DNA from: Schmidtea nova
Taxonomy: Eukaryota
Length of the DNA stretch: 64,000 nt
Assembly (NCBI GenBank): GCA_044892505.1
Contig: CM097884.1
Span: forward strand, 98,766,001-98,830,000
Reading direction: 5' to 3'
Part shown: piece by piece, positions 39,231-64,000 of the stretch
Layout of the letters: every line of letters begins with the position of its first letter
Numbering within the stretch: the first letter of the stretch is position 1
The notes under the pieces: model-generated
The model's database searches: none
What the model was told of the DNA's origin: nothing
The model's input: the letters and a program-made list of their open reading frames with translations, nothing else
Made by a program: the position numbers and the translations under genes

Positions 39231-41589
39231 AAAAAATTGAATTTTTGAAACTGAAGTTCATAGGAAAAAAATATTTTTTAAACATTTCTTATACATTTTG
39301 TACAGATTACTAACTGTTCCGTATCTTATTTCTTAATAAAAGTTGCTTAGTTATTACTATTACTCTTCTGAATAAATCTAAATACACATGTCCTTTTTTA
39401 GAAAAAAAAATATTTTTTCACTTTCTTCTCCCGAAGGGGGGGGGGGGGCTTTTTAAAAAAAATCAAAAATGCAATTTTTATTCTTAAATTACACATAGAC
39501 TTTCCTCGATTGCAAGTCGTTTCATAAAGTTTTTCTGTGTGTGTTTACCTCAATTTTTGCGGTTTAAGTAAATTAACTGATGTGATTGTTATTAATGTTT
39601 ATTTTTTCTTTTGATTTGAGTACTATACTCGTTTAATTATTCAAATGTCATGCCACATACTTTGTAGAAGACTGATCGCCTTTTCTGTACTCGAATATTA
39701 GAGCCTTTTCAATTGATTATTAAGGACTTTGTTCTCAGTCATACTGTTGTTTATAAATATGAAAATATTTATAAAATATTCTTAGAAAAATATTTTTTTT
39801 ATAAAAAAGAGAATTTTAATTTTTTTAAGATTAATTTATTTAAATTTAAAAAAATTTGATCGTTTTAAATTTTTTGGATATTTTATAAAATTAATAATAT
39901 ACATTTTATTTAAAAATTATTAAGTTCTAAATTATTAAAAATTAAATTAAGTTCTCGAAATATATTGTGCAGAATATATATTNNNNNNNNNNNNNNNNNN
40001 NNNNNNNNNNNNNNNNNNNNNNNNNNNNNNNNNNNNNNNNNNNNNNNNNNNNNNNNNNNNNNNNNNNNNNNNNNNNNNNNNNNNNNNNNNNNNNNNNNNN
40101 NNNNNNNNNNNNNNNNNNNNNNNNNNNNNNNNNNNNNNNNNNNNNNNNNNNNNNNNNNNNNNNNNNNNNNNNNNNNNNNNNNNNNGTAAAATTACAGGAT
40201 ATATATTTTTTTGGGTAATAAATTGTAGAAACTTGATCAGATTAATTTGTAAGATGATTTATTTGATCTTAGTATTTCATCCATGCCTCAAGGCATATAG
40301 GAATAAATAAATCACAGAGAATTACGGCAAAATACAAAGAAATTAAATCTAAAAATTTCAAGTATTCACAAATAATTCTAGTGATACAATATTGTTGAAG
40401 TTATAAAACAATTTTAACCATCTAATTATAAATATATTATTTTATATGAATGCAATATTTTCTTTAATTCTATAAAAGGTTCTGAAAAGATTCAATATGC
40501 TTACGATCTAAAAACTATTTATTATATTCGTGTAATTTATGCTTTCGGAAGGTATTAATTTTCGGTCGACATACTTTTTTAATAACTTTTTTGTTCAAGA
40601 GTTAGCGCTTTTACAGCATTTCTTTTTATTGGGTTCAAAAATTTTTTTTTTGGAATAAATTTCAGAGATAATTCTGTGGTCCTCTTCCATCGAAACCATT
40701 TCTCAATTTATAAATTACCCAATTTATTCCATTGTTAAAAGGAATTAGAAATTACCTATTTATTCTTCCAGATATATTTTAGCATAATATTATATTATCT
40801 ATTTTAGGGTAATTTTTCTAAACTTATATATTTCGTAACTTCTTTTACGAAGTTGAAACAAAATCTTATAAAGCTTACAGATCATCAATGTCAACAATCT
40901 TTATTATTCTTATATTAATAAATAATGTGCACACTTGAAATACACTTGAAAAAGCACTGCCGAAAATTCGTGTACCTTCATAAAAATATTGATATGCATT
41001 TATAAGTAAAATAATAGAATAATATACAATTTTAAGTCAATTTGCACCAAATTTGTCAGTATTGTGTATGCTTTCAAATGATGTAGAAGGGGGTTCTTTA
41101 AAAGCCGTTGAAAAATAATGATTTCGATTTCCAAATATGTAACAAATAAGAGAGATAAATATTTAAAAATATATTTAAGCACATATTTTAGTTAGTTGAA
41201 CAGAATTGCATTTTTTGAGGCTGTAATAATAGGATAAGTCCAAATATATTTCAGAGCCTAACATTCTCTCAAATAATATTTTTGATACTTTCTCATACCA
41301 ATACCGCGCTTAAAGTTTCAAATAATTGTAAATTTCAAATATTTATATTGTTGGATTATTATTTAAGAACCCGGCCAATGTCTGATTCCACGTGTTTATT
41401 TTTTAAAAATTAATCAACGAAACCCAGCACAGAACAATTTGTTTACTTCTTAAAACATAAGTCACAATATTACAACTTTTACACTCTTCGTCGTAAAATA
41501 ATTTTACTTTAAGTTTGCATTGTTTTTCTGTTGTCGTCCTGATTAGGAGATAGTTAGCGATCTAGCAAAAGCCATTTATCCCTAAACTG

Positions 41590-41800
41590 TATATATTACG
41601 TAAGAACTATACAGTTTGTCACCCTCATAAAGTGGCGTAATTGTTACGTAATAATGACATAGCACTTCATATCCTACATATCAATGACGTAACAGTTACG
41701 TTATACTTTGAACCTTATAAAATTCTTTATTTATTACGTAATTCTTATATAAAACTTAAAAAATTAAAAAATAGTAATTCCTTTACGTAACTGACGATGT
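41590..41800. promoter_or_regulatory. Cluster of TTACGTAA/TGACGTAA bZIP-like sites (mirror at about 53120-53330)
   Basis: Perfect TTACGTAA at 41596, 41644, 41734 and 41783; TGACGTAA at 41685. Confidence 0.5.
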
Positions 41801-42186
41801 AATACTGAATTTTATTAATTTTTATTTATTATTTCTTAAATTTTACAAAAATTTAAATTAATTAACCTTTTCAACATTTTTTCCCAAATTTCCAAAAATG
41901 CACAGAACCAAATAATTTTTATACCAATCTACTGAGAATTAAATGGTGAACAAAAAAGGGTCAAAAATGCAAAATTGAACTCATCCGATCAAATTTACAC
42001 GTAAAAAGGGTCGATTCGGGGAAATTCCAAAAATCAAAAATGCTCAGATTTCAATAATATTTATATCAATCTACTAAGAGTTAAATGCGAACAAAAATGA
42101 AAACATTAAAAATTAGTCTCCTCCGATAAATTTATACGAAAAAAACTTATTTGGGTAAAAATGCTCATAATTTAATAATTTTTAAA

Positions 42187-42611
42187 TCAAGTCAAGGCAA
42201 TTTTCGAATATTTATTAGTAAAGATTTGATGATTCTTATTAACTATTCCTGACGGATCAACAGAAACTATTGAATTATTATTATAACAATCCAGATGCGA
42301 CTAATGATTCAATTTAGTATCCTTCAATGTTATACCATTAGCTTTAAGACACTCTTCATCACCTAAAAGACTGTAACACTTAGGCCTAAGAAACACCCAC
42401 TCGTCATACTTGAATCCTTTATTCTCGTCTTTAATTTACCAATGACGGAATCTAGGTTTTTTGAGTACAAGGTATGATTTGGGTCATAATTCGAAGCATC
42501 CAATAACATATCCCTAAATATAGCAGACAAACGAATATCCAGCTTACAATTCATAACTTCCAAGAAGAAAGAATCTGTATTACCAGAGACTATAACAATC
42601 TCACAGTTGAA
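42187..42611 (-). pseudogene. Polinton pPolB C-terminal fragment (left arm)
   Basis: Mirror of 52308-52732. Confidence 0.85.
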
Positions 42612-42687
42612 TTAATGTCATATAAAAACACACAATTTTAAAAAATAAATCTTTATTTAAATAAATCTTCGGCAATTAATTTGTATT

Positions 42688-43060
42688 CTAAAGATCATCG
42701 TAGTATGCCTTTTGCATTTCAGCAACCAAAATATGCACAGATTGTTGTCTTTTAAAATCGTGGCAACAGGCACATCCATTGGTGTATGAAACACGCATTG
42801 ATTCTTACAAACAACGCAATTTTCTACACACTTGACTCTAGCCCCAAACCATATCATAGTGCATTTCGAGCAACTCCTCGATATTGATCCCAGTGTAATG
42901 GTATATTTTATGTACTAACAACTCAGGGGCACAATAATCGAGGTTATATTTAATCTTTGGGTATAGATCTTGGATCTTCTTGAGAAGTACTTCGAGCAAA
43001 TAAAATAAAAAAATAAATTAATATAAAAATTAAAATAAAAATACTCTTACTTTTCGACAT
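42688..43060 (-). pseudogene. CxxCH-motif gene, spliced, with stops (left arm)
   Basis: Mirror of 51859-52231. Confidence 0.6.
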
Positions 43061-43110
43061 TTTCAAATTTTCACAATCAATGAATAACAATTAATACAAA
43101 CAAAATTTAT

Positions 43111-43545
43111 TTAATAAATTAATGTATTTATTTCATTAATTATATTTTCAACATAATTTTTAAAATCAAAAGCTTTTATTCCAAGCATAACAACTTTTCC
43201 GCTGCTAAAAACATTGACACATACTAGATCAAATTTCTGTAGGCGTAATGCAGGGAATATTTCTGGTTCGAACCAACAATGAAATTTCTTTTGTAATTCG
43301 TATAAATTAATAAATTTACCGACATCGACCGTCACGGTAATTGATTGAATCTCTAACTTTTTAATCTTGAATTTCAAATCCTCCAGCTCTAACGGTTGTT
43401 TGCATCCCATTACCCGACACTTGCCAGAATTGAAGAAGATGATGGGGTTCTTGCCGCTTCTGTCAACAACTTGTTTCGGTTTGCCACTCGAGAGTATCAT
43501 ACCGGGAACTAAACATTTACCTTTATAATTGATGTAGCTCAACAT
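43111..43545 (-). CDS. TATA-binding-protein-like protein, 144 aa (left arm)
   Basis: Both TBP repeats are recognisable: IIFFNSGKCRVMGCK, IQSITVTVDVG..INL, FEPEIFPAL, VFSSGKVVMLGIK; open frame. Confidence 0.85.
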   Translation of the reverse strand: MLSYINYKGKCLVPGMILSSGKPKQVVDRSGKNPIIFFNSGKCRVMGCKQPLELEDLKFKIKKLEIQSITVTVDVGKFINLYELQKKFHCWFEPEIFPALRLQKFDLVCVNVFSSGKVVMLGIKAFDFKNYVENIINEINTLIY

Positions 43546-43599
43546 TTTTCATTAGTTAAACAAATATAAACAATATTAATATTAATTAATTAATTAAAA

Positions 43600-44185
43600 A
43601 TGGAAATAAAAAATGATGCCGTATATCAAATAGTAGGACCCAGTGGGAGTGGGAAAACCTTGTTTGTATGTAGATTTCTACAATAAAAAATGTTTAAATC
43701 GAAATTCAATAAAATATATTCGCATCCGGGAGCTGATGAGGAACATGGATTGACTCAAGATCAGTTTTGTAAATTTAAAATGACTATTATAAAAGGTTTT
43801 AACAAAAATTGGTCATCAAGATTACAACAAGCTGATATTATAATTAGATGATTTGTATCAGGAAGTCAATAAAGAAAATTATTTCAACAATTTATTTACA
43901 AAACTTATTAGACACTTGGGTGTTACAGTTATTTTCATTACTCAAAATTTATTCCATCAAGGTGGTATTCATAGAACCCAGAATTTAAATGTACAGAATT
44001 TGGTTATATTCAAAAACCCACGAGATGCAACAATTATTGATTTTCTTGCAAGACAAGCTTACCCTAATGATAGAACATCTTTACTTGATTAATTTCAAGA
44101 TGCAATTAAAATTCCACATGGATATCTGTTTTTCGACTTTACACAACAATGTCCTGATGATTTACGTATAAGAACTAATCTTTGA
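43600..44185 (+). pseudogene. Polinton A32/FtsK-like packaging ATPase (left arm)
   Basis: Walker A GPSGSGKT, Walker B II(D)DL, FITQN, FKNPRD..LARQ, PHGYLFFD..LRIRT; stops and one frameshift. Confidence 0.92.
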
Positions 44186-44486
44186 ATTATTTATTTAATA
44201 TTTGATAAAATTTAATTTTAAATTAAATTCATATATTTTTGAAATATTTGTTATTTATTCCAATATGTGTATGTCTGATATGGCTTCATTTTATGCGTGA
44301 AAATTATTTAAATAATCAAAAATCTTTATTTTTGTCTCTATCTCTGTAACTTTAACGATATTTTATTGGGGATCTATCATTTTTTTTGAATTATTCTGTG
44401 TATTTTGATATAAAATTTCTCTCAATCATGCTTTTTCGTATTTGAAATATGACTAATGATTATCCTCTTTCAATAATTACCCACTT

Positions 44487-44523
<37 letters not shown>

Positions 44524-44548
44524 TGGATTCCCCCAAGTAAGGGATAGT

Positions 44549-44790
44549 GAGCGCACGTCACCACTTTTTTCACAGCAACGGTTGCTAACGTAAATACACA
44601 CATTAAGGTGAATTCACTGCGTAAACTGTTGCTAAGGTAGTACACACACATCAATATAGTCCCAGTGAAATATGTTGCTAGGATATACACACACATCAAT
44701 ATATAGTCAAATTGAAATATGTTGCTAGGGTATACGCACACATCAACATATAGTCCTAGTGAAATATGTTGCTAGGGTAAACAAACATCA
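44549..44790. repeat. Array of 4-5 units of 44-47 bp (GTTGCTA..ACACACATCA)
   Basis: Also at 49340-49577 (same strand) and about 50085-50330 (inverted). Confidence 0.9.
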
Positions 44791-44799
44791 ATACACAAT

Positions 44800-45019
44800 C
44801 CCCGAGGAACCTAAACTTTTACTAAATGAGAATTTGAGATTAGATATAAAGTTCGCTAAAGCTATTATTGATTTAAATCAAAGTCAAATACCTCTAAATG
44901 AAAATTTGAGATTGAATATAAAGTTTGCTAAAGCTATTGAAGAACCAGTACATGTAATAATATATGGAATATTTGAAAATGAAATTCAAATTACTGCTAA
45001 TCGAACAGTTTTGGTATAA
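44800..45019 (+). pseudogene. Polinton major capsid protein C-terminal fragment (left arm)
   Basis: NLRLNIKFAKAIEEPVHVIIYGIFENEIQITANRTVLV matches the Polinton MCP C-terminus. Confidence 0.8.
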
Positions 45020-45074
45020 TCTTTGTTCAAAGAACAAACAGTATAAATAAAATAGGAAAATTCAGCAAATTGTC

Positions 45075-45428
45075 ATGGATTAAGTCTTTTAATTATCTAG
45101 TTCTATTTAATTAAATTTAATTAGAAAACAGTTGTTAGGAAATCAATTTATTGAAGTCTACCCACTAGTTAAAATCCCTAATTTAGATGTAAATTAAGCC
45201 ATAGTTGTCAATATTCAATCATCTACTCTAAACGGGGAACATTGGATTACTGTTTACGTGACACCATGCAAGGTATATGCATTTGATTTATTACTTAATA
45301 AACTTCAAACGTTGGGCAAACCAATAGTATATAATAGAATTCGTTATCAGCATCCATTAATAATTACTTGTAATCAAACCTGCCTTGCATGGCTTATCTA
45401 TCTAAAAAGTATAAACTGTGTAGTTTAA
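45075..45428 (+). pseudogene. Polinton adenain-like cysteine protease
   Basis: FIEVYP..KIP, AIVVN, GEHWITVYV, FD, YNRIRYQ, TCNQTCLAWL; in-frame stops near the 5' end. Confidence 0.85.
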
Positions 45429-46196: not shown

Positions 46197-47489
46197 TTAT
46201 TCAATAAAATTGTGACAAATTAAGAAAGAAGTCAATTGTTCAATGAGAATTTGAATAACTTTGACTTGTTCATTCGGTTCAATCATCAAGCAAAGGGTTT
46301 TCATGTCGTTCAAGGTTTTTGAAAAGTCATCATTAAATCTTTTTTGGACAGTTTTGTAAGATTCACAAGAAAATAATGACTTACACAAGTATGTCAGTTT
46401 AACTTGTACTTTCACCATTCTTGAAACGATATAATTTAACTTATTTTTTGACGATAAAACATCAAAGATTACAGTTCCTATCCGTAACTCGTAATCAGCA
46501 TCATCATCCAATTCTATAATTATCATCTTCCGCTCTACGTCCGTCAGTTGAAATGATGTCAATTGTTTAAACAAATTCGGAAACGTTTTTAATAAATCTT
46601 CAAGCTGAAAAATAATAATATTCAATTTATCTTTAACAATATAATTGTCAGAATCTTCTTCCTTGTTTTCAGACGTACTAGAGATCTTTGAAACGTAGAA
46701 ATCTTTTGATTCAGTTAGTAAACGGGGGAAGAATCCAGGATATGTTTTAGATAAGTAAATATTAATAAAATCAAGAAATTCGTTCACTATTATTGCAAGC
46801 AATTTAACAGTGCTGTCATATCGCTGGCTGAATTTCTCCAATAATCTTGAGAGCCTTTGAAAAATAAAAATAAATTCTTCTTCATTCATGATTTTCTTTC
46901 GATAAGAATTACAAACTTCTTCCACAATTTCGAAAATTTCATATTTTTTCTTGTAGAAATGTTTTAATTTTTGATCTAGTTTCTGGATTTCATACGCTAA
47001 CACCCGATGAGTCTGGCTATTTATTGTCCCATCCATATTGATAATGTCGGAAATATTGCTGATCGTTCCAATTAAATGATGATGTTGACATGACACGTAA
47101 GCTTTCAATGTGCGCATTTCTAAGATCTTTTGAAAAATCTTTGTTACGATATACGTTAGTTCTACTTTTGTTATATTTTCATTCACAGAAAGGAAACCTA
47201 GATTGAAAATATTGTCAAAGTTGACTTTTAAATCAATCAAAATAGAATTAATCATGTTAATTAATTCATTTAATTTAATATAGAAGGATACATTTGTATA
47301 AAATTCATTTGTTTCATGAATAGTTTTAAGCGATGTAATTTCTTCTTTGTCCAATGGACATGTTGAACTCTCACGTAGCAAAGTGTACAAACAATTCTGA
47401 CAAAAAGAATGTTTACAAGAATCAAATTGTATATTGCATTCAGTGCTCATTGTGGAATAGCATATCAAACATACTTGATAAACGTTCAT
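46197..47489 (-). CDS. RING-HC (C3HC3D) E3-ligase-like protein with a long helical C-terminus, 430 aa
   Basis: CLIC..CKHSFCQNC..CPLD; intronless and stop-free; convergent with the protease, and the same layout recurs at 56678-58246. Confidence 0.85.
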   Translation of the reverse strand: MNVYQVCLICYSTMSTECNIQFDSCKHSFCQNCLYTLLRESSTCPLDKEEITSLKTIHETNEFYTNVSFYIKLNELINMINSILIDLKVNFDNIFNLGFLSVNENITKVELTYIVTKIFQKILEMRTLKAYVSCQHHHLIGTISNISDIINMDGTINSQTHRVLAYEIQKLDQKLKHFYKKKYEIFEIVEEVCNSYRKKIMNEEEFIFIFQRLSRLLEKFSQRYDSTVKLLAIIVNEFLDFINIYLSKTYPGFFPRLLTESKDFYVSKISSTSENKEEDSDNYIVKDKLNIIIFQLEDLLKTFPNLFKQLTSFQLTDVERKMIIIELDDDADYELRIGTVIFDVLSSKNKLNYIVSRMVKVQVKLTYLCKSLFSCESYKTVQKRFNDDFSKTLNDMKTLCLMIEPNEQVKVIQILIEQLTSFLICHNFIE

Positions 47490-49711: not shown

Positions 49712-49857
49712 ATAAATTGATTTAAATAAATTGATTTCCTAACAACTGTTTTCTAATTAAATTTAATTAAATAGAACTAGATAATTAAAAGACTTAATCC
49801 ATGACAATTTGCTGAATTTTCCTATTTTATTTATACTGTTTGTTCTTTGAACAAAGA

Positions 49858-50070
49858 TTATACCAAAACTGTTCGATTAGCAGTAATTTGAATTTCATTT
49901 TCAAATATTCCATATATTATTACATGTACTGGTTCTTCAATAGCTTTAGCAAACTTTATATTCAATCTCAAATTTTCATTTAGAGGTATTTGACTTTGAT
50001 TTAAATCAATAATAGCTTTAGCGAACTTTATATCTAATCTCAAATTCTCATTTAGTAAAAGTTTAGGTTC
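49858..50070 (-). pseudogene. Polinton MCP C-terminal fragment (right arm)
   Basis: Identical translation to the left-arm copy. Confidence 0.8.
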
Positions 50071-50353
50071 CTCGGGGATTGTGTATTGATGTTTGTTTAC
50101 CCTAGCAACATATTTCACTAGGACTATATGTTGATGTGTGCGTATACCCTAGCAACATATTTCAATTTGACTATATATTGATGTGTGTGTATATCCTAGC
50201 AACATATTTCACTGGGACTATATTGATGTGTGTGTACTACCTTAGCAACAGTTTACGCAGTGAATTCACCTTAATGTGTGTATTTACGTTAGCAACCGTT
50301 GCTGTGAAAAAAGTGGTGACGTGCGCTCACTATCCCTTACTTGGGGGAATCCA

Positions 50354-50432
<79 letters not shown>

Positions 50433-50733
50433 AAGTGGGTAATTATTGAAAGAGGATAATCATTAGTCATATTTCAAATACGAAAAAGCATGATTGAGAG
50501 AAATTTTATATCAAAATACACAGAATAATTCAAAAAAAATGATAGATCCCCAATAAAATATCGTTTAAGTTACAGAGATAGAGACAAAAATAAAGATTTT
50601 TGATTATTTAAATAATTTTCACGCATAAAATGAAGCCATATCAGACATACACATATTGGAATAAATAACAAATATTTCAAAAATATATGAATTTAATTTA
50701 AAATTAAATTTTATCAAATATTAAATAAATAAT

Positions 50734-51319
50734 TCAAAGATTAGTTCTTATACGTAAATCATCAGGACATTGTTGTGTAAAGTCGAAAAACAGATATCCA
50801 TGTGGAATTTTAATTGCATCTTGAAATTAATCAAGTAAAGATGTTCTATCATTAGGGTAAGCTTGTCTTGCAAGAAAATCAATAATTGTTGCATCTCGTG
50901 GGTTTTTGAATATAACCAAATTCTGTACATTTAAATTCTGGGTTCTATGAATACCACCTTGATGGAATAAATTTTGAGTAATGAAAATAACTGTAACACC
51001 CAAGTGTCTAATAAGTTTTGTAAATAAATTGTTGAAATAATTTTCTTTATTGACTTCCTGATACAAATCATCTAATTATAATATCAGCTTGTTGTAATCT
51101 TGATGACCAATTTTTGTTAAAACCTTTTATAATAGTCATTTTAAATTTACAAAACTGATCTTGAGTCAATCCATGTTCCTCATCAGCTCCCGGATGCGAA
51201 TATATTTTATTGAATTTCGATTTAAACATTTTTTATTGTAGAAATCTACATACAAACAAGGTTTTCCCACTCCCACTGGGTCCTACTATTTGATATACGG
51301 CATCATTTTTTATTTCCAT
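50734..51319 (-). pseudogene. Polinton packaging ATPase (right arm)
   Basis: Mirror of 43600-44185, with the same lesions in the frames checked. Confidence 0.92.
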
Positions 51320-51373
51320 TTTTAATTAATTAATTAATATTAATATTGTTTATATTTGTTTAACTAATGAAAA

Positions 51374-51808
51374 ATGTTGAGCTACATCAATTATAAAGGT
51401 AAATGTTTAGTTCCCGGTATGATACTCTCGAGTGGCAAACCGAAACAAGTTGTTGACAGAAGCGGCAAGAACCCCATCATCTTCTTCAATTCTGGCAAGT
51501 GTCGGGTAATGGGATGCAAACAACCGTTAGAGCTGGAGGATTTGAAATTCAAGATTAAAAAGTTAGAGATTCAATCAATTACCGTGACGGTCGATGTCGG
51601 TAAATTTATTAATTTATACGAATTACAAAAGAAATTTCATTGTTGGTTCGAACCAGAAATATTCCCTGCATTACGCCTACAGAAATTTGATCTAGTATGT
51701 GTCAATGTTTTTAGCAGCGGAAAAGTTGTTATGCTTGGAATAAAAGCTTTTGATTTTAAAAATTATGTTGAAAATATAATTAATGAAATAAATACATTAA
51801 TTTATTAA
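51374..51808 (+). CDS. TBP-like protein, 144 aa (right arm)
   Basis: Identical translation to 43111-43545. Confidence 0.85.
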   Translation: MLSYINYKGKCLVPGMILSSGKPKQVVDRSGKNPIIFFNSGKCRVMGCKQPLELEDLKFKIKKLEIQSITVTVDVGKFINLYELQKKFHCWFEPEIFPALRLQKFDLVCVNVFSSGKVVMLGIKAFDFKNYVENIINEINTLIY

Positions 51809-51858
51809 ATAAATTTTGTTTGTATTAATTGTTATTCATTGATTGTGAAAATTTGAAA

Positions 51859-52231
51859 ATGTCGAAAAGTAAGAGTATTTTTATTTTAATTTTTATATTA
51901 ATTTATTTTTTTATTTTATTTGCTCGAAGTACTTCTCAAGAAGATCCAAGATCTATACCCAAAGATTAAATATAACCTCGATTATTGTGCCCCTGAGTTG
52001 TTAGTACATAAAATATACCATTACACTGGGATCAATATCGAGGAGTTGCTCGAAATGCACTATGATATGGTTTGGGGCTAGAGTCAAGTGTGTAGAAAAT
52101 TGCGTTGTTTGTAAGAATCAATGCGTGTTTCATACACCAATGGATGTGCCTGTTGCCACGATTTTAAAAGACAACAATCTGTGCATATTTTGGTTGCTGA
52201 AATGCAAAAGGCATACTACGATGATCTTTAG
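51859..52231 (+). pseudogene. CxxCH-motif gene with a 61-nt phase-1 intron (51869-51929) and two in-frame stops
   Basis: Spliced frame MSK|ILLKKIQDLYPK..INIEELLEMH..GCACCHD aligns with 62384-62985. Confidence 0.6.
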
Positions 52232-52307
52232 AATACAAATTAATTGCCGAAGATTTATTTAAATAAAGATTTATTTTTTAAAATTGTGTGTTTTTATATG
52301 ACATTAA

Positions 52308-52732
52308 TTCAACTGTGAGATTGTTATAGTCTCTGGTAATACAGATTCTTTCTTCTTGGAAGTTATGAATTGTAAGCTGGATATTCGTTTGTCTGCTATA
52401 TTTAGGGATATGTTATTGGATGCTTCGAATTATGACCCAAATCATACCTTGTACTCAAAAAACCTAGATTCCGTCATTGGTAAATTAAAGACGAGAATAA
52501 AGGATTCAAGTATGACGAGTGGGTGTTTCTTAGGCCTAAGTGTTACAGTCTTTTAGGTGATGAAGAGTGTCTTAAAGCTAATGGTATAACATTGAAGGAT
52601 ACTAAATTGAATCATTAGTCGCATCTGGATTGTTATAATAATAATTCAATAGTTTCTGTTGATCCGTCAGGAATAGTTAATAAGAATCATCAAATCTTTA
52701 CTAATAAATATTCGAAAATTGCCTTGACTTGA
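52308..52732 (+). pseudogene. Polinton pPolB C-terminal fragment (right arm)
   Basis: SGNTDSFF (motif C), LLDASNYDPNH..VIGK, then after a frameshift KDE..FLRPKCYSL..KANGI..HQIFT..KIALT. Confidence 0.85.
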
Positions 52733-55238
52733 TTTAAAAATTATTAAATTATGAGCATTTTTACCCAAATAAGTTTTTTTCGTATAAATTTATCGGAGGA
52801 GACTAATTTTTAATGTTTTCATTTTTGTTCGCATTTAACTCTTAGTAGATTGATATAAATATTATTGAAATCTGAGCATTTTTGATTTTTGGAATTTCCC
52901 CGAATCGACCCTTTTTACGTGTAAATTTGATCGGATGAGTTCAATTTTGCATTTTTGACCCTTTTTTGTTCACCATTTAATTCTCAGTAGATTGGTATAA
53001 AAATTATTTGGTTCTGTGCATTTTTGGAAATTTGGTAAAAAATGTTGAAAAGGTTAATTAATTTAAATTTTTGTAAAATTTAAGAAATAATAAATAAAAA
53101 TTAATAAAATTCAGTATTACATCGTCAGTTACGTAAAGGAATTACTATTTTTTAATTTTTTAAGTTTTATATAAGAATTACGTAATAAATAAAGAATTTT
53201 ATAAGGTTCAAAGTATAACGTAACTGTTACGTCATTGATATGTAGGATATGAAGTGCTATGTCATTATTACGTAACAATTACGCCACTTTATGAGGGTGA
53301 CAAACTGTATAGTTCTTACGTAATATATACAGTTTAGGGATAAATGGCTTTTGCTAGATCGCTAACTATCTCCTAATCAGGACGACAACAGAAAAACAAT
53401 GCAAACTTAAAGTAAAATTATTTTACGACGAAGAGTGTAAAAGTTGTAATATTGTGACTTATGTTTTAAGAAGTAAACAAATTGTTCTGTGCTGGGTTTC
53501 GTTGATTAATTTTTAAAAAATAAACACGTGGAATCAGACATTGGCCGGGTTCTTAAATAATAATCCAACAATATAAATATTTGAAATTTACAATTATTTG
53601 AAACTTTAAGCGCGGTATTGGTATGAGAAAGTATCAAAAATATTATTTGAGAGAATGTTAGGCTCTGAAATATACTTAGACTTATCCTATTATTACAGCC
53701 TCAAAAAATGCAATTCTGTTCAACTAACTAAAATATGTGCTTAAATATATTTTTAAATATTTATCTCTCTTATTTGTTACACATTTTGAAATCGAAATCA
53801 TTATTTTTCAACGGCTTTTAAAGAACCCCCTTCTACATCATTTGAAAGCATACACAATACTGACAAATTTGGTGCAAATTGACTTAAAATTGTATATTAT
53901 TCTATTATTTTACTTATAAATGCATATCAATATTTTTATGAAGGTACACGAATTTTCGGCAGTGCTTTTTCAAGTGTATTTCAAGTGTGCACATTATTTA
54001 TTAATATAAGAATAATAAAGATTGTTGACATTGATGATCTGTAAGCTTTATAAGATTTTGTTTCAACTTCGTAAAAGAAGTTACGAAATATATAAGTTTA
54101 GAAAAATTACCCTAAAATAGATAATATAATATTATGCTAAAATATATCTGGAAGAATAAATAGGTAATTTCTAATTCCTTTTAACAATGGAATAAATTGG
54201 GTAATTTATAAATTGAGAAATGGTTTCGATGGAAGAGGACCACAGAATTATCTCTGAAATTTATTCCAGAAAAAAAAGTTTTTGAACCCAATAAAAAGAA
54301 ATGCTGTAAAAGCGCTAACTCTTGAACAAAAAAGTTATGAAAAAAAGGTATGTCGACCGATAATTAATACCTTCCGAAAGCATAAATTACACGAATATAA
54401 CAAATAGTTTTTAGATCGTAAGCATATTGAATCTTTTCAGAACCTTTTATAGAATTAAAGAAAATATTGCATTCATATAAAATAATATATTTATAATTAG
54501 ATGGTTAAAATTGTTTTATAACTTCAACAATATTGTATCACTAGAATTATTTGTGAATACTTGAAATTTTTAGATTTAATTTCTTTGTATTTTGCCGTAA
54601 TTCTCTGTGATTTATTTATTCCTATATGCCTTGAGGAATGGATGAAATACTAAGATCAAATAAATCATCTTACAAATTAATCTGATCAAGTTTCTACAAT
54701 TTATTACCCAAAAAATTATATATCCTGTAATTTTACNNNNNNNNNNNNNNNNNNNNNNNNNNNNNNNNNNNNNNNNNNNNNNNNNNNNNNNNNNNNNNNN
54801 NNNNNNNNNNNNNNNNNNNNNNNNNNNNNNNNNNNNNNNNNNNNNNNNNNNNNNNNNNNNNNNNNNNNNNNNNNNNNNNNNNNNNNNNNNNNNNNNNNNN
54901 NNNNNNNNNNNNNCTAAAGATTTTTATAAAATTATTTTAATAAAAGAAGGTATTTTTCAAAGAAAACATCTCGTTTAAAATAAAAATGATTATCAGTAAA
55001 GATTTAAATAATTAGAACATTTAAAATCAAATTTAAAATGTACTGTAAAAAGTCTTATTAAAGTTTTTATTAAATATATAGGTTTATTAAAATATAGTTG
55101 AAATTAATTAAAAAATCGTATGTTGAATGTATGTATGAATGTTCTGTATGAAAACTCTGTCAAGAAAAATTACATATTTATGTGAATCTCCTAACGTTGT
55201 TTTAATAATTGTGGTAAAAAATACAGTTTTGAAATTTT

Positions 55239-56680
55239 GTGAATTTAATTAATTATTTAATGATCGATGCAATTAATACTCGAAGTTCGGGAAAAGAAGA
55301 TACTAACATGGCGACCACGCTTTTGGCAAATTTTGTCGAACAACCGAAACATTTCGAAATGGGCCAAGATATCCACAAGTTCATAGCAGACATCGAACGT
55401 TTCTTCGAGATATTAAATATCGAAGGCAGATTAAGAAATAACTTTGTAAGAGCATTCCTTTCTGGAAAAGCCATTGAACTATACGATGAGATAACATCAG
55501 AAATGGGATATAAAGAAAAACTTATTAGGGCGTTTTCAAAACCATCAACATTAATCGAAAATCTACAAGAAGCTCTGAATTATACGAAAGGAGAAGATAG
55601 AGTTAATGATTATTGGAGGAAACTGGAAAAATTAACAGATGGTATCCTCAAACATAAGATGGATAAAGATACGTTAATGAAGTTTCTATTGTTCAATACA
55701 TTGGATTATAAGGAGATGAAATACGATCTCAAAATCCAAGACATAAAGCCTATCGGAGAAATAAAAGCGAGAATGGAGAAATTAGAAAAGATTAAAGACG
55801 AGTTAAACGAAACCTACAGACCGATTGCAGTGATTTCAAAGAGAACATTTGCTGATACCGTTAAATTTCAGAATATGGAAAACAATATGCCTGTTGCAAG
55901 AAGTAATTTTTCAAATCAAAACGTCATTAGACATGAAGGTAAACGCTGGGAGGGTAATAAACAAAGTTTTTTCCCAAGGACAAATGGTTTACGTCAAGGA
56001 AATCGGGTACAAGATAATCAATATAAAGGATATAACTACAACAGATATAGCAACAACCAGAAAAGAAAACAATATAAAGATGAGGAAGCTGGCCAACCGA
56101 GAAAATACCAGTGCTGGGCATGCAGAGAATGGGGTCATAGAAGGCACGAATGTCCAAATGTACAATGTACTCACTGCCATAAACAAGGACATTTCAAACA
56201 TCAATGTTTTGCAATGAATAACTACAGATCCAGAGGACAGGTTGCCGGTATGGAAGAAGACTATGTGGATGACAACTACGAGGATCAGATACCGACCCCA
56301 AATGCCAAAGCTTTTGTGATGGAGGAGAGCACAAAAGCACAGAACTAAAAGTATGTAATATTCTTGACAGAAACTGTATGTATGCGAATGATTGTGATTG
56401 TATGTTTGATTCTTGTGATTTTAATATTAAATATTTAAATAATAATTTTATTAATATAAATAATATTTGTGAATTAAATAGAAATAGTATATCTGAATAT
56501 AACTCTCAAAATAGCGAATCCATAAGTTTACTAAATGAAATTACCAGCCACTATGATGCAAGTGGAAGTAGTACTGAAGAAAGATTACTAACAATTGATT
56601 CAAGTATGTGCTCGATGAATGACAGGGATTCAATTATCAGATATGATGCTATGGAAGGCAGACCGAGCGTTGATGTTAAG
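55239..56680 (+). mobile_element. Second Ty3/Gypsy element, 3'-truncated at the start of protease
   Basis: LTR end TAACA|TGGCGACCACG PBS at 55309; gag, spacer ORF, then AMEGRPSV (compare MQGRPSV at 19326), joined to the RING fragment at about 56678. Confidence 0.9.
55308..56348 (+). CDS. gag: Gypsy Gag, open frame, two CCHC knuckles
   Basis: MATTLLANFVEQPKHF..; CWACREWGHRRHEC and CTHCHKQGHFKHQC. Confidence 0.88.
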   Translation: MATTLLANFVEQPKHFEMGQDIHKFIADIERFFEILNIEGRLRNNFVRAFLSGKAIELYDEITSEMGYKEKLIRAFSKPSTLIENLQEALNYTKGEDRVNDYWRKLEKLTDGILKHKMDKDTLMKFLLFNTLDYKEMKYDLKIQDIKPIGEIKARMEKLEKIKDELNETYRPIAVISKRTFADTVKFQNMENNMPVARSNFSNQNVIRHEGKRWEGNKQSFFPRTNGLRQGNRVQDNQYKGYNYNRYSNNQKRKQYKDEEAGQPRKYQCWACREWGHRRHECPNVQCTHCHKQGHFKHQCFAMNNYRSRGQVAGMEEDYVDDNYEDQIPTPNAKAFVMEESTKAQN

Positions 56681-57060
56681 AAGTTTGTAATTCTTATCGA
56701 AAGAAAATCATGAATGAAGAAGAATTTATTTTTATTTTTCAAAGGCTCTCAAGATTATTGGAGAAATTCAGCCAGCGATATGACAGCACTGTTAAATTGC
56801 TTGCAATAATAGTGAACGAATTTCTTGATTTTATTAATATTTACTTATCTAAAACATATCCTGGATTCTTCCCCCGTTTACTAACTGAATCAAAAGATTT
56901 CTACGTTTCAAAGATCTCTAGTACGTCTGAAAACAAGGAAGAAGATTCTGACAATCATATTGTTAAAGATAAATTGAATATTATTATTTTTCAGCTTGAA
57001 GATTTATTAAAAACGTTTCCGAATTTGTTTAAACAATTGACATCATTTCAAAGTTTATTT
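56678..57060 (+). pseudogene. Internal fragment of the RING gene (second copy)
   Basis: Nearly identical to about 46920-46550; 5' end replaced by Gypsy sequence; about 350 bp before the stop deleted. Confidence 0.9.
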
Positions 57061-57891
57061 TTTCTATATTTTATTTTTGAGACAATATTTATATTTATAT
57101 ATTATCAGAGATGGGAAGTAATGATTATTGACATTTTTGAAAAGCAATTAACATTAAACAATAAAATAAAAAGTTCTTACTATTTCCACTCTTGAAATTA
57201 GTATTTATAATGTTTATCATATTGTTGTACATTTTGTTGATTAATTATATTCGATATAAAAATTTTGGGTTATGTAAAAAGTGATTAAAATAATGAAAAT
57301 ATTACTTTATTTATCGTCTATTGCATAATATTTATTCAGTTAATGAAATTCGTTTATGGGAAGAAAAGAGTCGCTCGCACACATACAACATGTATTAACA
57401 ATTTATACAGACATGCTATATGTATTGTCATACACACATATTTCGTCAATATTAATAATCAATATTAATAATAGTCAATATTATTAATCAGTCTCTCACA
57501 CACATAAATAATCATGCACGATGACCGCAGAGGTCATGCATTTAAATTGCAAAGCAATTATTTATTTTTTCAAATAAACTAAAACCCCAACCAAGCATCC
57601 TTTATAAGCACAGTTTGTATGATCTCGATATGGACATCAAATAATGTCAGGATAATCTTCTATTTCCTTAAAATTATTCGCCAATTCCAGCCCAAAAAGG
57701 AACGTTATTATACAGTATATCCAATATTTTGGTAGAAAAATACTATTAACATTCGTAATACATAATTATTATATAATTATCCATACTATTAACATTCGTA
57801 ATACAGAATTATTATATAATTATCCATTTGCATTTATCAATAAAACCATAAATATCAATAAAATAACAATTCATTTTTCTAATAACATTTA

Positions 57892-58246
57892 TTAAACTAC
57901 ATTGTTTATACCTTTTAGATAAATATAAGCCATGCAAGGCAAGGTTGACCACAAGTTATTATTAATGGATGCTCATAACGAATTCTATTATATACTATTG
58001 GTTTGCCCAACGTTTGAAGTTTATTAGGTAATAAGTCAAATGCATATACCTTTTTGGTGTCACATATACAGTAATCCAATGTTCCCCGTTTAGAATAGAT
58101 GATTGAATATTAACAACTATGGCTTATTTTACATCTAAAAAATGGATTTTATATAGTGCGTGGACTTCAATAAATTGATTTCCTAACAAATGTTTTCCAA
58201 TTCAATTTACCTAAATAGAACTAGATAAATAAAAGACTTAATTCAT
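57892..58246 (-). pseudogene. Polinton cysteine protease (second copy)
   Basis: GEHWITVYV, YNRIRY and TCGQPCLAW with the catalytic Cys-Gly; frameshifts. Confidence 0.85.
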
Positions 58247-58274
58247 GACAATTTGCTGAATTATCCTATTTTAT

Positions 58275-58860
58275 TTATAATGTTTGTTCTTTGAACAAAG
58301 ATAATACCAAAACTGTTCGATTAGCAGTAATTTGAATTTCATTTTTAAATATTCCATATATTATTACATGTACTGGTTCTTCAATAGCTTTAGCGAACTT
58401 TATATTCAATCTCAAATTCTCATTTAAAGGTATTTGACTTTGATATAAATCAATAATAGCTTTAGCGAACTTTATATCTAATCTCAAATTCTCATTTAGA
58501 GGTATTTGACTTTGATTTAAATCAAAGTCCGGAGCTAAAACAAGGGTAAATGGTTCTTTGGTTTTAAAATCAGCAGAAGATATACCTAAATTCAAATTCT
58601 TATCCAAATATTCCATATTTCTCACCATCGACTGTTAGTATCTAATACAATAATTATCATTTTCGAAATATTAAGTATATTTTTCTCGATAATCAGTGTT
58701 TTTAGATAGAGATAAGGAATTTACATTAAAATGTTTGAATTTCCCATGATTGTCGAGCGCTTTCAAATCAATCTCGGATCGAATGCGATTGTCCGATGGA
58801 GCAATAGCCAGAATGCGATCAATCAATTGAATCCCCTCAATCTCCAGATTGTGTGAATAT
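58275..58860 (-). pseudogene. Polinton major capsid protein, C-terminal third
   Basis: FKHFNVNSLSL, GISSADF..FTLVLAPDFDL, NLRLDIKFAK..EEPVHVIIYGIF; 72-nt internal duplication. Confidence 0.8.
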
Positions 58861-59062
58861 TATAAACAAGATAAACAAAAGAATGAATATTATAAACAGA
58901 ATAAAAATCATAAAAAATTAATTAATTAAAATGTCATTCAAAAATGTCGTTGTTCAACCCGTTATGGGAAAAACCGATAAAAAACAAATATTAAAGGTAA
59001 AGAAGATGTCATAAACAGACATCATTGAAAAAGAAGTAAAAAATCAAGAAATCAAAGAAGAA

Positions 59063-59437
59063 ATGGATTAAATTATAAACAAATCAAATTGTGAAAAGTT
59101 GATAATAAGGAAAACTGAACGCAGTTTACCATATTTTAATGCCATGATAAAGGCTCCAATTAATAAACGTATGACAATTTTACAGGCTTTTCCCCCATTT
59201 GTTATTGATGATTTGCTTGAGGTTATTGTCAATTTAATTCGTGGTAATGTAAATATTAGTAAAGCCAAAAGATTAGTGCTACCAAAACACAAAAGATCTC
59301 TTTTATTACTAGTCAACACTAAAAATAGTAAGCTTATGCAAATGATAATTTATAAGCAAAATGTCAGTTTCCTAGGTACATTAGTGTCAATAGTATTATC
59401 AGCTATAAGTGCAATTTCATCATTAAATGGAAACTAA
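59063..59437 (+). pseudogene. Small Polinton/adintovirus basic ORF with a C-terminal amphipathic helix (pX/Cah-like)
   Basis: LLEVIVNLIRGNV..KHKRSLLLL..YKQNVSFLGTLVSIVLSAI resembles the Q.GGFL..L motif; early stop after ATG 59063. Confidence 0.55.
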
Positions 59438-59496
59438 GCATTCAATTCCGGATAAACATAATTTAGACTTGAATATATTAACATCTTGTTGTAACA

Positions 59497-60470
59497 ATGA
59501 CGGAAATATTATACAAAAAGAAGGTAACCAAAAATCAATTAAAAAAGATTTATACAAACCCAAAAGATCCCGATTTGTTTGATGGGGTAAACAAAATTTC
59601 AAAAAGAGTTAATAATTATAGAAAGATACACAAAAATGGTTATCTGATCAATTGGCATATAGTTTAAATAAACCAATGTTAAAAGGATTTCCTACACGTA
59701 GTTACAAACAATTGGTATTGATGATTTATGGCAAATAGATTTAATGGAAATGATACCTTTTTCAAAAATAAATAATGGATACAAGTATATTTTGACTTGT
59801 ATTGATGTGTTTAGTCGCTATGTATGTGCAGTTCCAACAAAAACTAAATCTGCAAATGAAATGGCTGAAGCTATAAAAACTTTATTTGCAGAAGGTCAAC
59901 CTCGAAATTTACAAACTAATTTGGGTAAGATTTTAATTTATTTTAAATTAATTTAAATTTTATTCTAAGTAAAGAATTTTATAATAGTAAAGTTAAAGAA
60001 ATTATCAAGGGTATTAATCATTACTCTGTATTTTCACAATTCAAGGCAGTTGTTGTTGTAAGATTCAATCGAACACTGAGATAAATTGAAAAAATACTTT
60101 GTTTTTCAAGGAAATAAAACTTGGATAAATGTTTTGCCTAAATTGATTTATAGTTATAATTATTCTCCCCATAAAGGAATACAAGGAAAGTGACTCATTG
60201 ATGTTTATTCTACAATTAATATGGATAGTTGGTTATCTGAACAAAGAAAATCAATAAAGAAAAAGCTGAAGTACAAGGTCGGTGATCATGTTAGGATCAG
60301 TAAAATCAATGGATCCACTTTATCAAGAATTTTGACAATAATTGGAGCGATGCAGTTTATCAAATCTAGAAAATCAATACAAATCAGAACCCGGTCATGT
60401 ACTTTATTACCGATTCTTAAAATAATGAAATCAGTGGGAAATTCTATCAAAATTCTATCGAAAGAGTTTT
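59497..60470 (+). pseudogene. Polinton rve integrase with a 44-nt intron-like insert
   Basis: IYTNP, LWQIDL, YILTCIDVFSRY, QTNLG|KEF, VVRFNRTL, YNYSPH, KVGDHVRISK, NWS, GKFY; second D is N and E is V; stops and frameshifts. Confidence 0.92.
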
Positions 60471-63155: not shown

Positions 63156-63635
63156 TTATGAGTCACACGATAATATGAAATCAACAAAGGCTTTATCTTC
63201 AATAATTGATTTTATATCCATAATTATATTATCAACTATATTTAAATAGTCCCTAGTTTTTAGACCTAATATAACTACTTTACCACTTGAAAATATATTA
63301 ACACACATGGAATTATATTTTATATATCTCAAAGCTGGAAATATTTATGGTTCATAAACACATTCTATTAATTTAGCCAAATCATTTAAATTACAATTAA
63401 ATCCCAAGTCTGCCATTACAGTAATCGATTGGATTGTTAAATCATAAATCTTTACCTTTTCATCACTAATAAATTCCTTGCATCCCATAATTCTAAATAT
63501 CCTGGTCTTAAAATATATTTTCGGATATTTACCACTTCTATCAATAATTTGTTATGGGATCCCCTTAGGAAAATTCATGTGTGATACATCAGTCTTACCC
63601 TTATAATTTATATTGCTAATCAATAATGAAAATAT
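63156..63635 (-). pseudogene. Divergent second-lineage TBP-like gene
   Basis: SNINYKGK..IIDRSGK..IYF..RIMGCK..IQSITV..YEP*IFPALR..VNIFSSGKVVILGLK; two stops; start codon uncertain. Confidence 0.85.
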
Positions 63636-63714
63636 TTTAAATATGACAATAATAAAAACAATTATCATTTAAAAAAAATATAAACAATAATAATTTATTA
63701 ATAAAATTAGAAAT

Positions 63715-64000
63715 ATGGAATTAAGAAATGATGCAGTGTTTCAAATTGTTGGACCGAGCGGGAGTGGAAAAACTTTATTTATTTGTAAATTATTACAATC
63801 AAAATTATTCAAATCAAAGTTTAATAAACTTTATTGGCATAGGGGAGCAGATGAAGAACATGGAATGACTCAATGACAATTTTGTAAAATAAAAATGACA
63901 ATCATGAAAGGTTTCGATAAAAATTGGTCATCTAGATTAAGAGAAAGGGATGTGATTATTATTGATGATTTGTATCAAGAAGCAAGTAAAGAAAATGAGT
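63715..64000 (+). pseudogene. Divergent second-lineage packaging ATPase, 5' part (cut by window end)
   Basis: MELRNDAVFQIVGPSGSGKT..IIIDDLYQE; one in-frame stop. Confidence 0.92.

What the first reader, a model, noticed from the sequence alone, without database searches (positions are those of the whole stretch)
43111..44185. Polinton-like virus carrying its own TBP-like gene, head-to-head with the packaging ATPase
Seen: a compact 144-aa two-repeat TBP fold starts 54 bp from the ATPase ATG on the opposite strand. The same divergent pair recurs at 63156-64000 in a clearly diverged lineage. Three of the four positions matching TBP's DNA-intercalating Phe are kept, and repeat 1 is shortened. In the repeat arms this frame is open while the adjacent ATPase, pPolB and CxxCH genes are broken. 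Known: the Polinton core set is pPolB, integrase, ATPase, protease and capsids; TBP homologs are known from some giant DNA viruses. Inference: this lineage encodes a basal transcription factor or TBP mimic that may drive late genes or compete with host TBP. I cannot check whether it has been described.
Basis: partly seen in the sequence, partly recalled or inferred. Interest (0 to 1): 0.88.

Follow-up and report, generated by a model that had tools for sequence, protein, structure and literature searches.

The report
Polinton's own TBP and matching promoter
A virus-like jumping element carries a cut-down copy of the cell's TATA-binding protein, and a private TATA-like word sits in front of most of its virus-particle genes but not in front of this gene, so the element likely brings its own switch for late genes; TBP genes in such elements were already labelled in published supplementary data, and this particular copy is decayed.

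Summary
Observation largely confirmed. 43111-43545(-) encodes a 144-aa TBP-fold protein (Pfam TBP E 9e-14; fold Z 12.9 over 144 residues), 54 bp head-to-head with a broken packaging ATPase. It belongs to a high-copy Polinton/Maverick family (at least 150 copies; TIRs, 6-bp TSD, double-jelly-roll capsid) and to a Polinton-borne TBP clade separate from host TBP/TRF. The first lobe lacks both helices; three of four Phe and both TFIIB-contact glutamates are kept; the DNA face is remodelled. The word YATAAAC lies on the sense strand before 113 of 137 virion/integrase genes (0 antisense), but before 1 of 66 TBP and 0 of 6 polymerase genes. Best reading: an early-made late-transcription factor, analogous to herpesvirus ORF24 (binding untested). 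Corrections: this copy is decayed and its open frame shows no selection; the 63156 copy is broken; head-to-head layout is lineage-specific (2 of 29 metagenome loci). Not unreported: a 2024 preprint's supplement labels TBP in 14 adintoviruses, some of this subfamily by eye. I found the cognate promoter in no paper searched. This scan noted the same system before on other genomes (9 findings).

The parts
43111..43545 (-). TBP-like gene, 144 aa; first lobe lacks both helices; decayed copy with open frame
43546..43599 (.). 54-bp divergent spacer between TBP-like gene and ATPase
43565..43571 (+). YATAAAC candidate late promoter word, 35 nt before the ATPase ATG
43600..44185 (+). Packaging ATPase (A32-like in young copies), broken by stops and a frameshift
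42660..43017 (-). Remains of a small Cys/His-containing gene of unknown function downstream of the TBP-like gene
   Evidence: no usable hit for the other lineage's version
42190..42611 (-). 3' fragment of pPolB; in young copies this fragment belongs to the terminal inverted repeat
44867..45016 (+). 3' fragment of the major capsid gene (double jelly-roll fold shown for the family)
45084..45398 (+). Adenain-like protease, decayed
45410..45416 (+). YATAAAC word before the gene that follows the protease
40623..44520 (.). Left arm of a 3,898-nt 100% inverted repeat (right arm 50399-54296); recent duplication or assembly artefact
51374..51808 (+). Identical second copy of the TBP-like gene in the right arm (word at 51348-51354, - strand; ATPase copy 50737-51319, - strand)
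63156..63623 (-). TBP-like gene of a second lineage (55% identity), broken
63679..63685 (+). YATAAAC word, 36 nt before the second ATPase ATG
63715..64000 (+). ATPase of the second lineage, broken by a stop; the element continues beyond the window with integrase, capsids, protease and pPolB

Best explanation
This Polinton lineage encodes a reduced TBP-fold protein, and the word YATAAAC precedes most of its virion and integrase genes but not the TBP or polymerase genes; the protein likely binds that word and would switch on late genes with host RNA polymerase II. Shown: the fold, the clade, purifying selection between lineages, loss of both first-lobe helices, retention of three Phe and of E93/E95, a family-specific polar DNA face (R44, M46, N111 almost or fully invariant), and the strand- and gene-class-specific word, mostly 32-50 nt before the ATG. 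Inferred: the TBP gene is early and read by host TFIID (its upstream DNA is enriched in canonical TATA and Inr-like words); its product reads YATAAAC; it recruits host TFIIB through the kept glutamates; and, lacking the first-lobe helix H2 surface, it escapes TFIIA/TAF1/Mot1/Brf control. In this genome's lineages the ATPase word lies in the short spacer just before the TBP start, so binding might also shut off the TBP gene (speculative). The copy at 43111 is a decayed relic of this system.
For: Fold. Core gene of the clade: 150 of 150 scored own-genome candidates match at 88-100%; 8 of 8 ATPases in 7 further regions have it; 41 of 80 metagenome loci, and 19 of 22 loci of 4 kb or more, carry another Polinton core gene. 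Selection: lineage 1 vs 2 has 67 of 84 synonymous sites different but dN 0.19; lineage 2 vs a lineage-3 copy gives dN/dS 0.21. Clade 100/100 apart from host and cellular TBPs. Word: 113 of 137 virion/integrase upstream regions on the sense strand, 0 of 137 antisense, 1 of 66 TBP, 0 of 6 pPolB, 7% of random windows; 91 of 107 in metagenome loci alone, 22 of 30 in this genome; 10 sites against 1.5 expected in the lineage-1 late block. Canonical TATA at -70..-20: 26 of 66 TBP genes against 15 of 137 late genes, p 9e-6. E93 92 of 102, E95 101 of 102; these are the TFIIB-contact glutamates, and first-lobe H2 is the regulator surface (PMC7221094, passages). R101, C109 and N111 align with yeast I194, V203 and L205, the altered-specificity positions of TBPm3 (PMC1636458, passages; register). 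Precedent: herpesvirus ORF24 with TATTWAA late promoters (PMC12529657, abstract and introduction).
Against: No binding, expression or start-site data. No TBP-less Polinton was obtained as a control, so the link between gene and word is co-occurrence only. Wild-type plant TBP has been crystallised on a C(-25) variant of the adenovirus major late TATA box (PDB 1qn3 title; that this reads TATAAAC is recalled), so host TBP can bind the word. One intercalating Phe is missing, which may weaken DNA bending. The 137 regions come from 46 related loci and are not independent; the first base was widened from T to Y after seeing two loci. 24 of 137 late genes lack the word. The TBP-like protein evolves about ten times faster than the ATPase (dN 0.19 vs 0.018). 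Herpes ORF24 needs five partners and is predicted not to bind TFIIB, so the analogy is imperfect.
Confidence: 0.7

Rival explanations
1. The word is a weak TATA box read by host TBP or a host TRF, and the viral protein is a decoy that titrates TFIIB or blocks host promoters (host shut-off) without driving late genes.
For: Host-type TBP can bind a C(-25) TATA variant (title). The host has TBP and several paralogues. The TFIIB glutamates are kept while one Phe and two helices are lost.
Against: Late genes avoid the canonical box: TATAAAC is enriched while TATAAAA and TATAAAT are not in most blocks. A yeast TBP mutant discriminates against C at positions 6-8. A decoy would not need an invariant, remodelled DNA face (R44 101, M46 102, N111 102 of 102).
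Confidence: 0.15
2. The word is a Forkhead-type site (ATAAACA; consensus recalled) or a site for another host or element-encoded factor, and the TBP-like protein has a separate role, for example at the termini or in packaging.
For: The base after the word is A in 101 of 122 sites, giving ATAAACA. Other small genes of unknown function lie beside the TBP gene.
Against: GTAAAYA shows no enrichment (8 sense, 7 antisense of 137); 21 of 122 sites lack the final A; strict sense-strand bias and a lower distance limit near 32 nt fit a core promoter element, not an enhancer site.
Confidence: 0.1
3. The protein binds the word as a repressor that keeps virion genes off in the integrated state.
For: Loss of first-lobe surfaces could make a non-productive complex; DNA binding alone would explain the remodelled face.
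Against: Conservation of both TFIIB-contact glutamates and TATA-like spacing fit productive initiation; the late genes would then need another activator, and none was identified.
Confidence: 0.05

Closest known systems
Adintovirus/Polinton genes labelled TBP (Buck et al. 2024 preprint, PMC11071296, supplementary file 2; Starrett et al. 2021, PMC8502044, Fig. 5 legend)
   Same: Small TBP-like ORFs in adintovirus genomes: 14 curated 'Adinto_TBP' entries among 27 'tbp' places in the stored, cut file. Adinto18043_TBP, the C-terminal part of Adinto12437_TBP and uAdinto17206 show this subfamily's signatures by eye, and each is listed right after the packaging ATPase.
   Different: Only labels: the main text has 0 occurrences of TBP, TATA or promoter. 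No cognate promoter, early/late logic or residue analysis was seen. Several other adintovirus TBPs there look like different subfamilies, some paired with a TFIIB-like 'Tiib'; no TFIIB hit was found among 31 accessory ORFs scanned here.
Beta/gamma-herpesvirus late-transcription TBP mimics (KSHV ORF24, HCMV UL87, EBV BcRF1)
   Same: Viral TBP fold with kept Phe and a polar DNA face, non-canonical TATA-like word at late (virion) genes, host Pol II (PMC12529657, abstract and introduction).
   Different: ORF24 is a large multidomain protein in a six-protein complex, binds Pol II directly and is predicted incompatible with TFIIB (section heading only). This protein is 144 aa, keeps the TFIIB glutamates, and the word is YATAAAC rather than TATTWAA. 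No sequence relationship beyond the fold was tested.
TBP-like proteins of giant and large DNA viruses (NCLDV, mirusviruses, poxviruses)
   Same: Same fold (BFVD matches); first-lobe regulator residues not conserved (PMC7221094, passages).
   Different: That paper reports those viral TBPs have diverged at the TFIIB signature and several viruses bring their own TFIIB; here E93/E95 are kept in 92 and 101 of 102. The element encodes no recognised RNA polymerase.
Cellular TBP, TRF/TBPL1 and archaeal TBP (PF00352)
   Same: Two-lobed saddle, Z 12.9 over 144 residues; second lobe intact with EPExFP stirrup.
   Different: About 25% identity; separate clade; first-lobe helices absent in this lineage; one Phe lost; DNA-facing hydrophobic residues replaced by polar ones; intronless gene inside a mobile element.

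Membership tests
TBP family (PF00352) | Two-lobed TBP saddle fold | tested here: met
   Pfam 51.5 bits over cut-off 22.9; Foldseek E 2.6e-9; Z 12.9, rmsd 2.5, 144 aligned
TBP family (PF00352) | Four DNA-intercalating Phe | tested here: not met
   Three kept (102, 101, 102 of 102); the fourth column is variable
TBP family (PF00352) | Helices H1 and H2 in each lobe | tested here: not met
   Model has only second-lobe helices; longer relatives have more residues there, not folded
TBP family (PF00352) | Second-lobe glutamate pair that contacts TFIIB/TFB | tested here: met
   E93 92 of 102, E95 101 of 102; feature from PMC7221094
TBP family (PF00352) | Binds and bends a TATA-type element | not testable with these tools
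   Needs a binding assay; only a candidate word was found
Host TBP/TRF paralogue | Nests among host or cellular TBPs | tested here: not met
   All 5 own and 18 Polinton-context rows fall on one side of a 100/100 branch, all 5 host rows on the other; AU test not run; long branches possible
Polinton/Maverick (adintovirus) | Protein-primed PolB | tested here: met
   PF03175 matches in the genome are 59-96% identical to the family's pPolB; only fragments in the window copy
Polinton/Maverick (adintovirus) | rve integrase with C-terminal chromodomain | tested here: met
   rve E 2.5e-8, Chromo E 9e-4 below cut-off
Polinton/Maverick (adintovirus) | A32-like ATPase and adenain protease | tested here: met
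   Pox_A32 E 1e-6, Peptidase_C5 E 1.6e-5
Polinton/Maverick (adintovirus) | Double jelly-roll major capsid protein | tested here: met
   Model pLDDT 80 matches PBCV-1, iridovirus and mavirus capsids, E 7e-16
Polinton/Maverick (adintovirus) | Single jelly-roll minor capsid protein | not tested
   Two paralogous 340-345 aa genes labelled from recall and position; no Pfam hit
Polinton/Maverick (adintovirus) | Terminal inverted repeats and 6-bp target-site duplication | tested here: met
   About 1.35-kb TIRs; 6-bp duplication in 2 of 3 copies examined, third not resolved. Not shown for the rearranged window copy
Herpesvirus ORF24-type late factor | Extra Pol II-binding and partner-binding domains; TATT word | tested here: not met
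   Whole 144-aa protein aligns to the TBP core; word is YATAAAC. It may work like one without being a member

The most novel reading that the evidence does not exclude
A large clade of Polintons runs a true early-to-late viral programme with the smallest known kit: one 144-aa TBP that reads a private word (YATAAAC), borrows host TFIIB and Pol II, has shed the surfaces used by TFIIA, TAF1, Mot1 and Brf, and in this lineage shuts off its own gene from the shared 54-bp spacer. That would be a natural orthogonal TBP-promoter pair and evidence that these elements are transcriptionally autonomous viruses.
Probability: 0.4. Interest if true: 0.85.

Novelty: new variant of a known kind. Interest (0 to 1): 0.68.

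Why it matters
How Polintons time their capsid genes, and whether they need a helper virus, is open. A TBP gene behind host-type promoter words plus a private word before the virion genes gives a directly testable answer: a self-contained late-gene switch, convergent with herpesviruses but far smaller. The protein is also a natural minimal TBP, showing which surfaces can be dropped, and could give an orthogonal TBP-promoter pair. The claim 'a Polinton carries TBP' alone is not new, and this window's copy is a relic; the value lies in the protein-word pairing.

Tried and rejected
Expression: no RNA holder listed; four contig-only runs of unknown kind cover the family stretch but say nothing on transcription. 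TBP-less control: not obtained. IMG/VR scans with the TBP or ATPase gave no Polinton loci (one search gave 3 and one search gave 1 distant TBP loci, of which only L052 was read). All own-genome ATPase and pPolB hits examined belonged to the same clade. TFIIB-like partner: none among 31 accessory ORFs, which is a partial set and weak evidence. The neighbouring Cys/His gene gave no usable Atlas hit. ESM Atlas for the TBP gave TBP clusters with uninformative taxa. No TBP-TFIIB complex was predicted: host TFIIB is split into exons, DNA cannot be included, and a pass would follow from likeness to solved structures. Rejected: selection on the window copy's open frame; head-to-head as a family trait; recent capture from the host; Forkhead site as main reading. 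Literature: 8 full-text searches found no paper describing a Polinton TBP with a cognate promoter; subscription journals, Repbase reports, figures and cut supplements were not seen. Term searches in PMC11071308 and 10.64898/2026.10.13.758929 found no TBP. The stored supplement of PMC8502044 is cut and had no TBP hit. A planarian piRNA paper (PMC8532177, passages) was read as background only; the host was not identified, so it is not used. The label 'PY' is my misnomer for the gene after the protease, which looks MAEL-like (recalled).

Full report
Observation. The ORF at 43111-43545(-) is real: 144 aa, Pfam TBP at E 9.1e-14, TBPs as best PDB sequence hits. The ATPase starts at 43600, 54 bp away on the other strand, and is broken. 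An identical copy at 51374-51808 lies in a 3,898-nt 100% inverted repeat and is not independent. The pair at 63156-64000 is a second lineage, 55% identical, with both genes broken.

The element. In the 1.25-Gb own genome, 150 of 150 scored candidates (18,722 at first look) match at 88-100% identity; 147 of 150 have no internal stop, a set biased to best scores. Of 28 fetched young loci, 25 have an open TBP frame and 24 an open ATPase. Young copies are about 15.5 kb, with TIRs of about 1.35 kb and a 6-bp target duplication in 2 of 3 copies examined. They carry ATPase, a mu-like core protein, rve integrase and adenain, a double-jelly-roll capsid, two putative minor capsids (label recalled) and pPolB. 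The TIR includes the 3' end of pPolB, which explains the fragment beside the TBP gene. In 7 further regions, 8 of 8 ATPases have a divergent TBP gene at 53-74% identity.

The window copy is a relic. It differs from a young copy by 6.2% in the TBP gene and 6.3% in the ATPase; 8 of 19 similarly diverged copies of the other lineage also keep a long TBP frame. Its dN/dS to young copies is 0.33 (11 synonymous, 16 non-synonymous), and two changes bring residues seen in 0 of 100 relatives. Selection is seen between lineages: synonymous sites are saturated while dN is 0.19, against 0.018 for the ATPase.

Distribution. A profile finds 53 clusters at E under 1e-30 and 600 under 1e-10 among 1.84 billion representatives, the weaker ones including ordinary TBPs; a second search gives 602 proteins. 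Of 160 confirmed metagenome matches, the best 80 were kept: 41 of 80, and 19 of 22 loci of 4 kb or more, have another Polinton core gene; the ATPase is on the same strand in 27 and opposite in 2 of 29. Head-to-head is therefore lineage-specific. In a 70-row tree, 5 own, 18 Polinton-context and 29 family rows, plus one row I had classed as 'other', are separated from the 5 host and 12 cellular or viral rows by a 100/100 branch. Caveats: long branches, one giant-virus row, no published adintovirus or herpes rows, no AU test.

Protein anatomy. The model of a natural family copy (pLDDT 97, 102 sequences) aligns to TBP over its whole length. The second lobe is complete; the first keeps its strands but has no helices. 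In 102 sequences F38, F97 and F113 are kept and the fourth Phe is not; E93 (92) and E95 (101) are kept; R44 (101), M46 (102), N111 (102), P23 (97) and R101 (71) replace cellular residues. PMC7221094 (passages) names the two glutamates as TFIIB contacts, places the TFIIA/TAF1/Brf/Mot1 surface on first-lobe H2, and reports that large-virus TBPs diverge at the TFIIB signature. R101, C109 and N111 align with yeast I194, V203 and L205 (register), the three altered-specificity positions of TBPm3 (PMC1636458, passages). That these changes alter specificity is inference.

Candidate promoter. Earlier notes of this scan on other genomes mentioned a shared TATA-like word; I tested it here. TATAAAC occurs 10 times against 1.5 expected on the sense strand of the lineage-1 late block, once antisense, and is enriched in most of 11 blocks; two distant loci prefer CATAAAC, so I widened the word to YATAAAC. 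After removing upstream regions over 80% identical, and dropping genes whose start could not be placed or had under 140 nt of flank, the word lies within 140 nt upstream of 113 of 137 virion/integrase genes (ATPase 31 of 32, major capsid 14 of 15, integrase 12 of 19), 0 of 137 antisense, 1 of 66 TBP genes and 0 of 6 pPolB genes; random windows give 7%. Metagenome loci alone give 91 of 107. Most nearest distances are 32-50 nt, and many sites lie inside the upstream coding sequence. TBP genes instead show canonical TATA (26 of 66 vs 15 of 137) and Inr-like words (62 of 66 vs 57 of 137). In the window the word is at 43565 and 63679. The 137 regions come from 46 related loci, so the p values overstate independence.

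Mechanism. Most likely (0.7) an early gene read by host machinery makes a minimal TBP that reads YATAAAC and recruits host TFIIB and Pol II to virion genes. Shown: fold, clade, selection, residue pattern, word distribution. Inferred: binding, activation, TFIIB use, escape from regulators, timing. Speculative: auto-shutoff in the short spacer. Against: no expression or binding data, no TBP-less control, host-type TBP can bind a C(-25) box (title), one Phe lost. Rivals: decoy with host-read word (0.15), other factor (0.1), repressor (0.05).

Prior knowledge. PMC8502044 (section 3.4, passages, part of a cut supplement) and its preprint 10.1101/697771 (passages) mention 'TBP' only in figure legends for viruses from non-animal datasets. 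PMC11071296 (passages and supplement searches) labels TBP in 14 curated adintovirus entries, some of this subfamily by eye and some with a TFIIB-like gene, without main-text comment. PMC12529657 (abstract, outline, introduction) gives the herpesvirus analogue. Eight searches found no description of the cognate word; unseen journals, figures and cut supplements may hold one. This scan has 9 earlier findings of the same system on other DNA and none in this genome.

Verdict. Real feature; new variant of a known kind; interest 0.68. The gene's existence is already annotated elsewhere; the protein-word pairing and early/late logic are the testable part.

Noticed in passing
L205+L206, L207+L208, L209+L210: A roughly 15.7-kb palindromic element with two full pPolB genes pointing outward in 7-kb inverted arms (over 99.8% identical in 2 of 3 loci) and no capsid, ATPase or TBP match; only one YATAAAC per strand in the one copy counted. 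Possibly a polymerase-only derivative or linear-plasmid-like element.
   Followed up: partly
L042/L043/L204 and L046/L047/L212: Lineage-1 TIRs of about 1.35 kb contain the last 170 or so codons of pPolB, so each element carries a partial second copy of the polymerase end.
   Followed up: partly
L139:1387-2241; L140; L141: A multi-copy, long-branch TBP/TRF-like host family (285-aa open frame in L139, several broken copies), grouping with the host's TRF-like paralogues and unrelated to the Polinton protein; the host also has at least two TBP-like and two TRF-like genes.
   Followed up: partly
window 46197-47489 (-): A 430-aa RING-finger ORF between the inverted-repeat arms, partly duplicated at 56678-57461.
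   Followed up: no
window 40009-45158 and 49719-54913: Near-perfect giant inverted repeat made of a decayed element's left part; recent duplication or assembly artefact not distinguished.
   Followed up: no
L031-L033: Tandem array with period about 8.3 kb of a deleted element (TBP, ATPase, integrase, two minor capsids, no major capsid) alternating with a 612-aa ORF.
   Followed up: no
upstream of TBP genes in metagenome loci (L053-L132): A second word, TTGTTTTA, occurs before 20 of 66 TBP genes but 4 of 137 late genes, typically followed by an Inr-like word; a candidate TATA-less early promoter element.
   Followed up: partly
L069:225-722 (-): A related Polinton carries an E2 ubiquitin-conjugating enzyme gene (Pfam UQ_con E 1.7e-12).
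   Followed up: no
window 29604-31067 (-): Old, heavily decayed pPolB remnant of the same broad clade.
   Followed up: partly
window 58055-59950: Further Polinton fragments: capsid and protease on the minus strand, core-protein and integrase genes on the plus strand, with YATAAAC words at 58861-59080.
   Followed up: no
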